Of a stretch of DNA of 64,000 bases, positions 2,802-4,631 are shown one piece after another. The translations under genes were made by a program, and so were the position numbers. The notes beneath the pieces are model-generated. The model saw nothing but the letters and a program-made list of their open reading frames with translations. It had not been told where the DNA came from and did not search any database. The stretch's first letter is position 1. Each line of letters starts with the position of its first letter. Origin of the DNA: Chitinophagales bacterium (GTDB lineage: Bacteria > Bacteroidota > Bacteroidia > Chitinophagales > Saprospiraceae); contig JBBRQS010000003.1 in the NCBI GenBank assembly GCA_038226035.1, forward strand, positions 61,351-125,350, in the 5' to 3' direction.

Positions 2802-4631
2802 TCATTTGCCTAAAACCAAACGCAGACCAATATCCTCGCGTTTATCATTCGGATTGAAACTTGCTCGGGCAGCAGAACGACAAAAATTTTCTAAACCGTT
2901 AATTGAGCCGCCGCGAATAACCAAGACATCATTGGGCGCGCGCAATTTTGGTCCGAAAGGATTTCTGTATTCCGAACTTTTATAAAAATCTCTTAAAAAA
3001 ACATCGCCGCACCATTCGAACACGTTGCCACTCATATCGTAAATGCCTAATTCGTTGGGTTTTTTTTGCCCGACGGTGTGCGTGTTATTATCGGCGTTAC
3101 CGAAAAACCAACCGACACTTTCTAAGTCGTTCGCTCCGCTGAATTTTCTGTTTTGTGTTTTTATGCCGCCGCGTGCCGCATATTCCCATTCCGCTTCGGT
3201 CGGCAGGCGATAATTTTTGCCGGTTTTTTCATTGAGTTTTAAAATAAAATCATTCACTTCATACCGAGATATATTCTCAACCGGACACAGATTGCATTTT
3301 TCATGGTGCGACTGATTATTACCCATCACCGACATCCAAAGCCTTTGCGTCACTTCGTATTTCCCGATATAAAAATCATCTACATTCACATCATGCACCG
3401 GTTGTTCGCTCGCCGAAAGACCTGTACCACTGATATTCGGATTACTTTGCCCCATTTTAAATTCGCCGCCTTTTACGAAAATCATAGGCGGTTGCTGAAC
3501 GGCTGCGAATAATTGTTCAGGATTTACCGGTACCGGAACGAAGACAGACGGTAAAGCCGGCAGCACAACAATTTTTTCATTTTTTTTACCGTCATTACCG
3601 GCTCTGCTTTTTTCATTCTGATGGCGGCATTGCGAAAAATAAACGGTAAAAGCGACCGCCGCCGCACTGATAATAGATAAAAAATTGCGGAATGTCGTGC
3701 CGTAGCGTGCAAAAAAAGGTATGAGCGTACCGGAATTAAATATGGTTTTTGTCTGCGGAACGTCCGAATCGGCGGTTAAACTTGCCGAAGATGCTGCGGT
3801 ATACATCGGATAATTAACCGGTGCGCCATTATCTTTTACAAATTCGGGTTTAAGCGTGAAAATAAATCTGCCACCCATATCGCCCGCATCGCGCAAACTG
3901 CCGAACTGCGGTAATTGAGAAGCGTTGGAGCTGGTATTTTGCCGCACATCTATCGCCAATTTATCGAAAATAAGGTTTTGATCGACATTGGTTTTCAGTT
4001 CTATAATAATGGCATTTGCAAAAGGACTATTGCCGCCCGCATTACCGTCAGCCACCGGTTCGCTACCGCCGGAAGTAAACATCCAACGTGAAGGTTTGCT
4101 TTGCAACTCGTAAATATCGCGGCGCATTGTAGTGATACCGCTATCGCGATAGAGTAACGATCCTGAAAAACATGAATCGGATACCAACAAAACGTGTCGG
4201 CATTTCATGTTTTTTATTTGATTCCGGATATCGAAATTAGGAATGTAAGACGCATTGTCGTCCACATCGGCATCCACCGGAATCCAATAACCGTCGCCGT
4301 TATCATCAAGATAACCGTGACCGGAAAAATAAATTATCAAACTGTCGTTAGTACCTAATTGTGCGGGGTTGGTTAAACGGTAAAGTGTATTGATGATATT
4401 ACTGCGCGTGGCTTGCTCATCAATCAGAAAAGTAATATTTTCTTTTTTAAAATCGTAACGCTCAATCAGTGCGGCAGTAATGTCGTTGATGTCGCGCGTG
4501 GCATTGTGAAGTTTAGGCAAATGCAAGTAATTATTGATGCCGATGGCAAGTACGTTATTTATTCCTACCGGAATCGAGGTGTTATTATCGGCAGCATCCG
4601 TGTGACCTATGGCTCTTTGGTTATTGGGCAT
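2802..4631 (-). CDS. caspase-fold (peptidase C14) - TM helix - FGE-sulfatase (SUMF1-like) fold fusion protein
   Basis: N-terminal C14 contexts IIYFSGHGY and VLLVSDSCFSGS. Hydrophobic segment FLSIISAAAVAFTVYF. C-terminal FGE-fold motifs: FVKGGEFKMG, YIGKYEVTQ, RLPTEAEWEYAARGG, MSGNVFEWC, IRGGS, GLRLV. Confidence 0.8.
   Translation of the reverse strand: MPNNQRAIGHTDAADNNTSIPVGINNVLAIGINNYLHLPKLHNATRDINDITAALIERYDFKKENITFLIDEQATRSNIINTLYRLTNPAQLGTNDSLIIYFSGHGYLDDNGDGYWIPVDADVDDNASYIPNFDIRNQIKNMKCRHVLLVSDSCFSGSLLYRDSGITTMRRDIYELQSKPSRWMFTSGGSEPVADGNAGGNSPFANAIIIELKTNVDQNLIFDKLAIDVRQNTSSNASQLPQFGSLRDAGDMGGRFIFTLKPEFVKDNGAPVNYPMYTAASSASLTADSDVPQTKTIFNSGTLIPFFARYGTTFRNFLSIISAAAVAFTVYFSQCRHQNEKSRAGNDGKKNEKIVVLPALPSVFVPVPVNPEQLFAAVQQPPMIFVKGGEFKMGQSNPNISGTGLSASEQPVHDVNVDDFYIGKYEVTQRLWMSVMGNNQSHHEKCNLCPVENISRYEVNDFILKLNEKTGKNYRLPTEAEWEYAARGGIKTQNRKFSGANDLESVGWFFGNADNNTHTVGQKKPNELGIYDMSGNVFEWCGDVFLRDFYKSSEYRNPFGPKLRAPNDVLVIRGGSINGLENFCRSAARASFNPNDKREDIGLRLVLGK

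What the first reader, a model, noticed from the sequence alone, without database searches (positions are those of the whole stretch)
2802..4631. Caspase - single TM - FGE-fold architecture; the FGE module looks non-catalytic, suggesting a ligand sensor
Seen: one hydrophobic segment (FLSIISAAAVAFTVYF, around aa 315-335) separates the protease half from the FGE-fold half, so the two halves should lie on opposite sides of the membrane. Orientation is ambiguous. The absence of an N-terminal signal peptide argues for a cytoplasmic protease. However, the strongly basic stretch RHQNEKSRAGNDGKKNEK sits after the helix, which by the positive-inside rule would place the FGE side in the cytoplasm. In the FGE fold the region after RGGS reads INGLENFCRSAARAS and has one Cys. 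Genuine formylglycine-generating enzymes carry a Cys pair there (C..S.C type). Established: FGE-sulfatase folds without the Cys pair are common C-terminal modules of bacterial signalling proteins. Inference: an extracytoplasmic binding domain may control an intracellular protease, or the reverse.
Basis: partly seen in the sequence, partly recalled or inferred. Interest (0 to 1): 0.6.

Follow-up and report, generated by a model that had tools for sequence, protein, structure and literature searches.

The report
Membrane-anchored bacterial caspase with lectin-fold sensor
This Saprospiraceae gene encodes an intact caspase-type protease joined through one weak membrane helix to a non-enzymatic, lectin-like "FGE" binding domain, which is an ordinary member of a widespread fusion family first catalogued in 2012 and still without an experimentally tested function.

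Summary
ORF 2802-4631(-) encodes 609 aa. It has Peptidase_C14 (aa 28-245), one hydrophobic helix (aa 316-335) and FGE-sulfatase (aa 380-606).

- **Protease:** the His105/Cys154 dyad is invariant in 65 homologues.
- **FGE module:** it lacks the first copper-binding Cys (Gly579) and keeps the second (Cys584). Its best match by sequence and by fold is TvpA, a non-enzymatic binding protein.
- **No hypermutation element:** the genome has no diversity-generating retroelement (DGR) to vary this domain.
- **Helix:** it is only marginally hydrophobic (KD19 1.65). AlphaFold shows it isolated between disordered linkers, and it is better conserved than those linkers.
- **Orientation:** caspase inside and FGE outside is favoured. 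There is no signal peptide. Membrane-helix-bearing relatives carry more Lys/Arg on the N-side. A same-genome DnaJ-TM-FGE paralogue must have that orientation. The basic C-flank is real and argues the other way.
- **Family:** the architecture is not new. 74 of the best 120 database hits carry both domains, and about 25 of 65 sampled have an internal membrane helix, including a Haliscomenobacter protein. Metacaspase-FGE-sulfatase fusions were catalogued in 2012, and FGE-like domains were later proposed as sensors.

Verdict: a new member of a known kind, with sensing and activation still inferred. Low interest.

The parts
2802..4631 (-). Complete gene, 609 aa (P0001): orthocaspase, single hydrophobic helix, FGE-like domain
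   Evidence: ORF list and translation; Pfam; orthologues of 69-88% identity share the same start MP(N/D/V)NQR
3897..4550 (-). Peptidase_C14 (caspase/metacaspase-type) domain, aa 28-245
   Evidence: Pfam E 3e-18; aligns to Arabidopsis metacaspase-4/-9; AlphaFold pLDDT above 90 over most of it
4317..4319 (-). Catalytic His105 (SGHG motif)
   Evidence: Invariant in 65 homologues; aligns with the SGHG of metacaspase-4; codon checked
4170..4172 (-). Catalytic Cys154 (DSCFSG motif); D152 two residues before it
   Evidence: Invariant in 65 homologues; aligns with the DSCHSG Cys of metacaspase-4, the position that is Ala in the 6W8R mutant chain; codon checked
3627..3686 (-). Hydrophobic helix NFLSIISAAAVAFTVYFSQC (aa 316-335), putative single transmembrane anchor
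   Evidence: KD19 maximum 1.65 and a 20-residue uncharged run between R315 and R336; AlphaFold helix 314-341 flanked by segments of pLDDT below 50; 96/83/78/52% identity in orthologues against 60/48/36/29% for the next linker
3573..3626 (-). Mixed-charge juxtamembrane stretch RHQNEKSRAGNDGKKNEK (aa 336-353)
   Evidence: Sequence; in the four own-clade members scored it has 4-7 K/R with 2-4 D/E; modelled as disordered
2814..3494 (-). FGE-sulfatase / C-type-lectin-fold domain, aa 380-606, TvpA-like
   Evidence: Pfam E 3e-41; PDB best hit 2Y3C TvpA at E 2e-30; Foldseek best hit 2Y3C at E 5e-19, TM 0.70, rmsd 2.4 A
2865..2915 (-). RGGSINGLENFCRSAAR (aa 573-589): degenerate FGE active-site loop. 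G579 replaces the first Cu-Cys and C584 keeps the second. It corresponds to the start of the TvpA variable region
   Evidence: Alignment to 2Q17/6MUJ and 2Y3C; column counts in 65 homologues; entropy profile; codons checked
4684..4691 (-). TAATTTTG, which matches the Bacteroidota -7 promoter consensus TAnnTTTG, about 55 nt upstream of the ATG (candidate own promoter)
   Evidence: Sequence read; that the motif is a promoter element rests on my own knowledge, so function is inferred
4751..4778 (-). Hairpin plus T-run upstream of the gene, which separates it from the thioredoxin-like gene (5242-6792) and so implies a monocistronic unit
   Evidence: Terminator scan; sequence
1464..2705 (+). Convergent neighbour: signal peptide, MORN repeats, caspase (413 aa). 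Not a conserved partner
   Evidence: Pfam. Present next to the 88% orthologue (L013) but absent next to the 69% orthologue (L011/L012)

Best explanation
The gene encodes a receptor-like, membrane-anchored orthocaspase.

**Shown**
- The N-terminal caspase-fold domain has an intact His105/Cys154 dyad and invariant Asp47/Asp152/Asp195.
- A single conserved hydrophobic helix (aa 316-335) lies between two disordered linkers.
- The C-terminal FGE/C-type-lectin-fold domain lacks the first copper-ligand cysteine and most resembles the binding protein TvpA.

**Inferred**
- The protein inserts N-in/C-out. The active protease then faces the cytoplasm and the lectin-fold domain faces the periplasm.
- The FGE-like domain binds a lineage-specific envelope or foreign ligand (glycan or protein) through its variable C-terminal loop region.
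- Binding clusters the receptors, and the cytoplasmic caspase domains are activated by proximity.
- The activated protease cleaves cytoplasmic targets after Arg/Lys, as metacaspases and orthocaspases do. The outcome would be a stress or suicide-type response.
- The gene acts alone, as a monocistronic unit with no conserved partner genes.

The confidence figure applies to this whole topology-plus-sensor reading. The bare architecture and the loss of FGE chemistry are near certain.
For: **Domains and catalytic residues:**

**FGE chemistry lost:** G579 replaces the first Cu-Cys.

**TvpA is the best match** by sequence (E 2e-30) and by fold (E 5e-19, TM 0.70).

**Variable binding region:** aa 577-600, the equivalent of the TvpA variable region, holds the densest run of highly variable columns in the FGE domain across 65 homologues. 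It is bracketed by the invariant or nearly invariant R573, G574, G575, R589, G602 and R604 and by the majority C584-R585.

**Helix:**
- It is isolated between disordered linkers in the AlphaFold model.
- It is better conserved than those linkers.
- It is a 20-residue uncharged run between two Arg.

**Orientation:**
- There is no signal peptide, and no upstream start codon is possible.
- Among 21 relatives outside this clade that have an internal membrane helix, the N-flank has more K/R in 13, equal numbers in 6 and fewer in 2.
- The same genome has a DnaJ-TM-FGE paralogue. Its J-domain must be cytoplasmic (established biology of DnaK co-chaperones).
- Two further FGE paralogues in this genome have a signal peptide.
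- A caspase-TM paralogue has a Lys-rich N-flank.

**Stand-alone gene:** it has its own upstream terminator and a promoter-like motif, and its neighbours are not conserved.

**Published proposals for FGE-like domains as binders or sensors:** PMC7159879, PMC10907252, PMC13581612.
Against: - The helix is only marginally hydrophobic (KD19 1.65; a simple Hessa-scale sum of +3 kcal/mol).
- One close orthologue (P0003) falls below the 1.6 threshold.
- In the four own-clade members scored, the C-flank carries more K/R than the N-flank (4-7 against 2-3). By the positive-inside rule this argues for the opposite orientation or for no insertion.
- About half of the caspase-FGE homologues have neither a membrane helix nor a signal peptide. 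FGE-caspase coupling therefore does not require a membrane.
- No ligand, substrate or activation mechanism is known for any member.
- There is no defence-island context.
Confidence: 0.55

Rival explanations
1. The hydrophobic helix does not span the membrane. The whole protein is cytoplasmic, like roughly half of its family. The helix would then serve for oligomerisation or peripheral membrane association, and the FGE-like domain would sense an intracellular ligand such as a phage protein.
For: - Hydrophobicity is marginal (KD19 1.65; positive simple Hessa sum).
- P0003 is below threshold.
- The K/R-rich C-flank disfavours translocation of the C-terminal half.
- About 30 of 65 caspase-FGE homologues lack both a membrane helix and a signal peptide.
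- Cytoplasmic FGE-like sensors are described in STAND NTPases (PMC13581612).
Against: - The 20-residue uncharged run bounded by Arg, the isolated helix in disordered linkers and its conservation above linker level all fit an anchor.
- The hydrophobic moment is low (0.24), so it is not an amphipathic surface helix.
- The nearest FGE paralogues in this genome are all exported or lie behind a membrane helix.
Confidence: 0.2
2. The protein spans the membrane N-in/C-out, but the FGE-like domain is a localisation or tethering module rather than an allosteric sensor. It would bind a cell-envelope structure, much as the PorK/GldK/GldJ FGE-like lipoproteins are structural. The protease would then be regulated by other means.
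For: - The FGE domain also matches the GldK/PorK and GldJ models and structures, all far below their cut-offs.
- The putative binding loop is fairly conserved among the five close orthologues, which suggests a constant ligand.
- No DGR diversification is present.
Against: - The GldK score is 94 against a cut-off of 350 bits.
- True GldK and GldJ genes exist elsewhere in the genome.
- The same FGE module is fused to many signalling or effector N-termini, which fits a generic sensor.
Confidence: 0.15
3. The topology is reversed: the caspase domain is periplasmic and the FGE domain cytoplasmic, as the positive-inside rule applied to the basic C-flank would suggest.
For: - In the four own-clade members scored, the C-flank has 4-7 K/R against 2-3 on the N-flank.
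- Exported caspases do exist in this genome (the MORN-caspase neighbour and its C15 paralogue have signal peptides).
- Some caspase-FGE homologues are wholly exported.
Against: - It would require export of a folded N-terminal region of about 315 residues without any signal peptide, which is not a known route in bacteria (established knowledge of Sec/YidC insertion).
- The family-wide flank bias is the opposite.
- The DnaJ-TM-FGE paralogue fixes FGE outside.
Confidence: 0.05
4. The FGE-fold domain is a working enzyme of a different kind, for example an oxidase like PvdO or another non-FGE member of the SUMF1/EgtB/PvdO superfamily. It would modify a substrate that the protease also processes.
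For: - It matches the PvdO, EgtB and OvoA models weakly, and PvdO is the second-best fold match.
- The 2012 survey speculated about combined proteolysis and formylglycine modification (PMC3501461).
Against: - All those NCBIfam scores are far below the cut-offs (77 against 500 and 58 against 360).
- Pfam finds no DinB-like iron-binding domain of the kind EgtB/OvoA need.
- One copper Cys is missing.
- The would-be active-site loop is hypervariable across the family, which is unlike a conserved catalytic site.
Confidence: 0.05

Closest known systems
Metacaspase (orthocaspase)-FGE-sulfatase fusion proteins catalogued by Asplund-Samuelsson et al. 2012 (PMC3501461), e.g. in Haliscomenobacter hydrossis (P0080) and Trichodesmium
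   Same: - The domain order is the same: N-terminal Peptidase_C14 and C-terminal FGE-sulfatase.
- Haliscomenobacter is named in that survey as a carrier of this fusion, and it belongs to Saprospiraceae (own knowledge).
- P0080 also has one internal membrane helix.
- 74 of the best 120 database hits carry both domains.
   Different: - This clade (5 proteins in the database, 69-100% identity) has a shorter linker and a weaker helix with a basic C-flank.
- It was not found full-length in 80 other genera of the family.
- The cyanobacterial variant described in 2012 has two membrane helices between the domains.
Treponema denticola TvpA (PDB 2Y3C), a DGR variable protein with FGE-type C-type-lectin fold
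   Same: - It is the best sequence and fold match of the C-terminal domain.
- It has the same loop pattern, RGGSxxGxxxxC, with Gly in place of the first FGE Cys and a loop 3 residues shorter.
- It is non-enzymatic.
   Different: - TvpA is a lipoprotein diversified by a DGR.
- Here there is no template repeat, and the single RT of the genome shows no template/variable repeat pair.
- Here the domain is fused to a protease.
Formylglycine-generating enzymes (human SUMF1, S. coelicolor and T. curvata FGE)
   Same: The overall fold is shared (Foldseek E about 1e-14 to 1e-15), as are the motifs RLPTEAEWE, GNVxEWC and RGGS.
   Different: The first of the two Cu(I)-ligand cysteines is Gly579, and the loop after the second Cys is 3 residues shorter. 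It is therefore not an FGE.
FGE/CLec-fold sensor modules of bacterial conflict systems (Kaur et al. 2020 PMC7159879; Dore et al. 2024 PMC10907252; STAND sensors, PMC13581612)
   Same: It is a C-terminal, non-catalytic FGE-like domain placed after an effector-type domain, with caspase-like peptidases among the partner effectors. The cited papers predict both periplasmic and cytoplasmic placements.
   Different: There is no NTPase (STAND, MoxR), vWA, EAD adaptor or DGR in the protein or its neighbourhood. The PADLOC hit is only the generic caspase model.
Receptor-type prokaryotic metacaspases (e.g. the Trichodesmium metacaspase-TM-CHASE2 protein discussed in PMC3501461)
   Same: The logic is the same: a cytoplasmic caspase domain, a membrane anchor and an extracytoplasmic sensor domain.
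   Different: The sensor fold differs (lectin/FGE, not CHASE2), and there is a single helix rather than several.

Membership tests
Peptidase family C14 (metacaspase/orthocaspase type) | Caspase-hemoglobinase fold with a catalytic His-Cys dyad | tested here: met
   Pfam PF00656 at 66.7 bits against a cut-off of 21.4. H105 and C154 are invariant in 65 homologues and align with the dyad motifs of Arabidopsis metacaspase-4. The fold matches metacaspase-9 and MALT1.
Peptidase family C14 (metacaspase/orthocaspase type) | Acidic S1 pocket that gives Arg/Lys specificity | tested here: inconclusive
   D47, D152 (two residues before the catalytic Cys) and D195 are invariant. Assigning them to the pocket rests on my recollection of the T. 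brucei MCA2 pocket residues, not on a structural superposition done here.
Formylglycine-generating enzyme (SUMF1-type, copper oxidase) | Pair of Cu(I)-binding cysteines in the RGGSxxCxxxxC loop | tested here: not met
   The first Cys is G579 and only the second (C584) is kept. Only 1 of 65 homologues (P0033) has Cys at both positions.
EgtB/OvoA sulfoxide synthases | N-terminal DinB-like iron-binding domain plus the FGE-like domain; score above the NCBIfam cut-off | tested here: not met
   Pfam reports only PF00656 and PF03781. The EgtB score is 57.6 against 360, and OvoA 27.7 against 400.
PvdO / GldK / GldJ (named FGE-fold lipoproteins) | Score above the equivalog cut-off; lipoprotein signal | tested here: not met
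   GldK scores 93.7 against 350, PvdO 76.6 against 500 and GldJ 46.1 against 458. There is no signal peptide. Separate GldK-like and GldJ-like lipoproteins are present elsewhere in the genome.
DGR variable protein (TvpA/Mtd type) | Template repeat matching the C-terminal variable region with adenine-specific differences, plus a DGR reverse transcriptase | tested here: not met
   BLASTN with word size 7 finds no repeat of the last 120 nt anywhere in the genome. The only RT (contig C1) has no template/variable repeat pair nearby.
EACC1-associated caspase defence modules | Score above the NF047832 cut-off and an adjacent EACC1 effector | tested here: not met
   The score is 64.5 against a cut-off of 140 bits. 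No EACC1 or other effector gene is nearby.
Metacaspase-FGE-sulfatase fusion architecture (Asplund-Samuelsson 2012) | One polypeptide with an N-terminal caspase-type domain and a C-terminal PF03781 domain | tested here: met
   The same architecture is seen in 74 of the best 120 database hits. It is described in PMC3501461.
Single-pass (bitopic) membrane protein, N-in/C-out | A membrane-spanning helix, and a C-terminal domain outside the cytoplasm | tested here: inconclusive
   - For: KD19 of 1.65, just above the classical 1.6 threshold; a 20-residue uncharged run; an isolated helix in the model; conservation above linker level.
- For the N-in/C-out orientation: family flank statistics and the DnaJ-TM-FGE paralogue.
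- Against: the K/R-rich C-flank.
- No dedicated topology predictor was available.

The most novel reading that the evidence does not exclude
A minimal one-protein 'death-receptor' pathway in a bacterium. A periplasmic lectin-fold domain recognises an envelope-level danger signal, such as a phage component or a foreign glycan. It directly switches on a cytoplasmic caspase across the membrane by clustering, which triggers suicide or growth arrest without any NTPase, adaptor or partner gene. No caspase-TM-FGE protein has been characterised experimentally, so this would be the first defined transmembrane caspase activation route in prokaryotes.
Probability: 0.25. Interest if true: 0.6.

Novelty: new member of a known kind. 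Interest (0 to 1): 0.2.

Why it matters
If the inferred mechanism is right, proteins of this type are the simplest known link between extracellular recognition and caspase activation. They are abundant in filamentous and particle-associated Bacteroidota and in cyanobacteria. This particular gene adds no new principle. The fusion was catalogued in 2012, the sensor idea for FGE-like domains has been published repeatedly, and thousands of homologues exist. Its value is as one more candidate for a first biochemical test, and a rather weakly anchored one. Relatives with strong membrane helices from cultured strains, such as the Haliscomenobacter hydrossis protein, would be better test subjects.

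Tried and rejected
1. **DGR target hypothesis** (prompted by the TvpA match). It was rejected. No template repeat for the 3' end of the gene exists in the 4.27-Mb genome. The sole reverse transcriptase has no TR/VR pair and looks retron-like, with a 53-nt inverted repeat just upstream.

2. **Two-gene system with the convergent MORN-caspase.** It was rejected as a conserved unit. The neighbour is present beside the 88% orthologue but absent beside the 69% orthologue, and the genes are convergent.

3. **Known defence system.** PADLOC gives only the generic caspase model, and NF047832 (EACC1-type) scores below its cut-off. The neighbours are housekeeping or envelope genes.

4. **Second membrane helix at aa 353-372.** It was rejected because it is proline-rich, not conserved and modelled as coil.

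5. **Rfam scan of window 1-8000** (covers the long upstream non-coding region). It gave no hit.

6. **Full-length orthologues in the family.** None were found in 80 other genera. Only separate or differently arranged caspase and FGE paralogues turned up.

7. **Dedicated topology prediction** (DeepTMHMM or Phobius). This was not possible with the tools. Only hydropathy scales, flank charge counts and the AlphaFold model could be used.
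Full report
**What is there**

The minus-strand ORF at 2802-4631 encodes a 609-aa protein (P0001). The ATG at 4631 is the first possible start after an in-frame stop. Pfam places Peptidase_C14 at aa 28-245 (E 3e-18) and FGE-sulfatase at aa 380-606 (E 3e-41).

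An AlphaFold2 model built on 65 homologues shows two confidently folded domains, covering roughly aa 20-265 and 378-609 (about 435 residues have pLDDT of 70 or more). They are separated by segments of pLDDT below 50 (aa 267-300 and 339-375). These segments flank a single long helix at aa 314-341.

The closest relatives come from Saprospiraceae metagenome-assembled genomes.

**Protease half**

- His105 (SGHG) and Cys154 (DSCFSG) are invariant in all 65 aligned caspase-FGE homologues, as are Asp47, Asp152 and Asp195.
- The dyad motifs align with those of Arabidopsis metacaspase-4. The Cys column is the one mutated to Ala in the 6W8R chain.
- The fold search also finds metacaspase-9 and MALT1.
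- The protease therefore looks active.
- Arg/Lys specificity is inferred from the metacaspase-type acidic residues. It was not tested.

**FGE half**

- In the HMMER alignment to copper-bound S. coelicolor FGE (2Q17/6MUJ; RGGSYLCHDSYCNRYRVAAR), the query reads RGGSINGLENFC---RSAAR. The first Cu(I) ligand Cys is Gly579 and the second is kept as Cys584.
- Across 65 homologues the first position is never a conserved Cys (the commonest residues are N, S, G and D). Only one protein (P0033) has both cysteines.
- All NCBIfam matches to named FGE-fold families (GldK, PvdO, EgtB, GldJ, SenA, OvoA) are far below their cut-offs. Pfam reports no DinB-like domain.
- The best solved relative is Treponema denticola TvpA. 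It scores E 2e-30 by sequence, and E 5e-19, TM 0.70, rmsd 2.4 A and 29% identity by fold. TvpA is a non-enzymatic ligand-binding protein with the same G....C loop pattern.
- The stretch that corresponds to the TvpA variable region (aa 577-600) holds the densest run of highly variable columns in the domain. It lies between conserved scaffold residues (R573, G574, G575, C584-R585, R589, G602, R604).
- This fits a binding surface with lineage-specific specificity. Among the five close orthologues the loop is fairly constant.

**Not a DGR target**

The TvpA match prompted a check for a diversity-generating retroelement.

- The genome has one reverse transcriptase, on another contig.
- That RT has no template/variable repeat pair nearby. 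It carries a 53-nt inverted repeat just upstream.
- No repeat of the 3' end of this gene exists anywhere in the genome.

**Hydrophobic segment**

- The best 19-residue Kyte-Doolittle window scores 1.65, just over the classical 1.6 threshold. The simple Hessa-scale sum is +3 kcal/mol. By itself the helix is marginal.
- In its favour, it is a 20-residue uncharged run bounded by R315 and R336.
- Its hydrophobic moment is low (0.24).
- It stands alone between disordered linkers in the model.
- It is clearly better conserved in the four orthologues (96/83/78/52% identity) than linker 1 (88/53/53/39%) or linker 2 (60/48/36/29%).
- The second hydrophobic patch (aa 353-372) is proline-rich, unconserved and modelled as coil.

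**Orientation**

In the four own-clade members scored, the 15-residue C-flank has 4-7 K/R (with 2-4 D/E) against 2-3 K/R on the N-flank. Taken alone this points to C-in. The counter-evidence is stronger.

1. There is no signal peptide, and about 315 folded residues would have to be exported N-terminally. That is not a known bacterial route (established knowledge).
2. Among 21 relatives outside this clade that have an internal membrane helix, K/R is higher on the N-flank in 13, equal in 6 and lower in 2.
3. The same genome encodes a DnaJ-TM-FGE protein (Pfam DnaJ E 9e-22, FGE E 2e-55). Its J-domain must be cytoplasmic, so its FGE domain, 44% identical to this one, is outside.
4. Two further close FGE paralogues have signal peptides.
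5. A caspase-TM paralogue (42% identical caspase domain) has a Lys-rich N-flank.

I therefore favour caspase-in/FGE-out. The alternative that the helix does not insert at all remains a real possibility.

**How common is it?**

- The database search returned 5375 proteins at E of 1e-5 or better among the 8000 scored. 74 of the best 120 carry both PF00656 and PF03781.
- Of 65 such proteins examined, about 25 have an internal membrane helix (often strong, KD up to 3.1). Seven have an N-terminal signal peptide, and the rest have neither.
- One helix-bearing relative is from Haliscomenobacter hydrossis (P0080).
- The literature already covers this.
  - Asplund-Samuelsson et al. 2012 (PMC3501461) found FGE-sulfatase to be the fifth most frequent partner domain of prokaryotic metacaspases (33 of 671). 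They noted variants with membrane helices between the two domains. They singled out Haliscomenobacter, with 28 metacaspases that include metacaspase-FGE-sulfatase.
  - The 2016 Baltic survey (PMC4933709) lists Metacaspase|FGE-sulfatase, and also MORN|metacaspase, which is the architecture of the neighbour gene.
  - Kaur et al. 2020 (PMC7159879) describe the 'FGS' domain as a C-type-lectin-fold binder that always sits C-terminal to diverse effector domains and is related to TvpA.
  - Dore et al. 2024 (PMC10907252) and a 2026 Nature paper (PMC13581612) treat FGE/CLec domains as antigen sensors, placed in either the periplasm or the cytoplasm.

**Context**

- The gene appears monocistronic. A hairpin plus T-run at 4778-4751(-) lies upstream, and a TAATTTTG motif lies about 55 nt before the ATG.
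- The convergent neighbour (1464-2705, signal peptide-MORN-caspase) is retained beside the 88% orthologue. It is replaced by unrelated genes beside the 69% orthologue.
- PADLOC gives only a generic caspase hit.
- The surrounding genes are envelope or housekeeping genes.
- In 80 other genera of the family no full-length orthologue was found. Caspase and FGE paralogues are patchy and expanded, with 0-17 matches per genome and 50 of 81 genomes positive.

**Mechanism (inferred)**

The protein is most likely a bitopic receptor-protease. A periplasmic lectin-fold domain binds a ligand, receptor clustering brings the cytoplasmic caspase domains together, and proximity activates cleavage after basic residues. 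None of these steps is shown for any member of the family.

The rivals are listed separately with the tests that would separate them:
- a fully cytoplasmic protein;
- a tethering role for the FGE domain instead of a sensing role;
- reversed topology;
- a cryptic enzymatic FGE-fold domain.

**Verdict**

- The non-catalytic reading of the FGE module is supported.
- The transmembrane reading is plausible but rests on a weak helix.
- The orientation is probably caspase-in.
- The architecture and the sensor idea are already in the literature.
- This is a new member of a known kind, of low interest.

Noticed in passing
window 1464-2705 (+): The convergent neighbour encodes a signal peptide, MORN repeats and a caspase domain (413 aa). 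A larger paralogue with more MORN-like repeats sits on genome contig C15 (63196-64854). MORN|metacaspase is a catalogued architecture (PMC4933709).
   Followed up: partly
genome contig C6:96191-97507 (outside the window): A DnaJ(J-domain)-coiled-coil-TM-FGE-like protein of 438 aa. It pairs a cytoplasmic chaperone-recruiting domain with an extracytoplasmic lectin-fold domain. It was used here only as a topology reference.
   Followed up: partly
genome contig C29:37094-38743 (outside the window): The caspase-TM paralogue carries an in-frame TAA stop inside the caspase domain and a disrupted 5' end, so it is probably a pseudogene. Its intact sister is at C2:217498-219411.
   Followed up: no
L001 = genome contig C1, about 225660-227963: This is the only reverse transcriptase of the genome (345 aa). 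It is preceded by two small ORFs and by a 53-nt inverted repeat at C1:226789-226840. It has no TR/VR pair, so it looks like a retron or defence-type RT rather than a DGR.
   Followed up: partly
window 14922-15166 (= C3:76272-76516): A copy of a roughly 250-nt palindromic repeat family with many copies across the genome (BLAST matches on at least 13 contigs, 67-90% identity, often in both orientations). It looks MITE-like.
   Followed up: no
window 5022-5084 and 5205-5239: Tandem heptamer arrays (ATGAATT/AATTCAT) form inverted partners just downstream of the thioredoxin-like gene, inside the 610-nt gap upstream of the caspase-FGE gene.
   Followed up: no
window 4779-4960 (-): About 180 nt of non-coding sequence ends in a strong hairpin plus T9 terminator (4778-4751). 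It gave no Rfam match. It could be a small transcript or a long 3' UTR of the upstream gene.
   Followed up: partly
protein P0033 (database homologue, 591 aa): It is the only one of 65 caspase-FGE homologues with Cys at both FGE copper-ligand positions (RGGSGACASEVC). It may be chance, or it may be a member that keeps metal binding.
   Followed up: no
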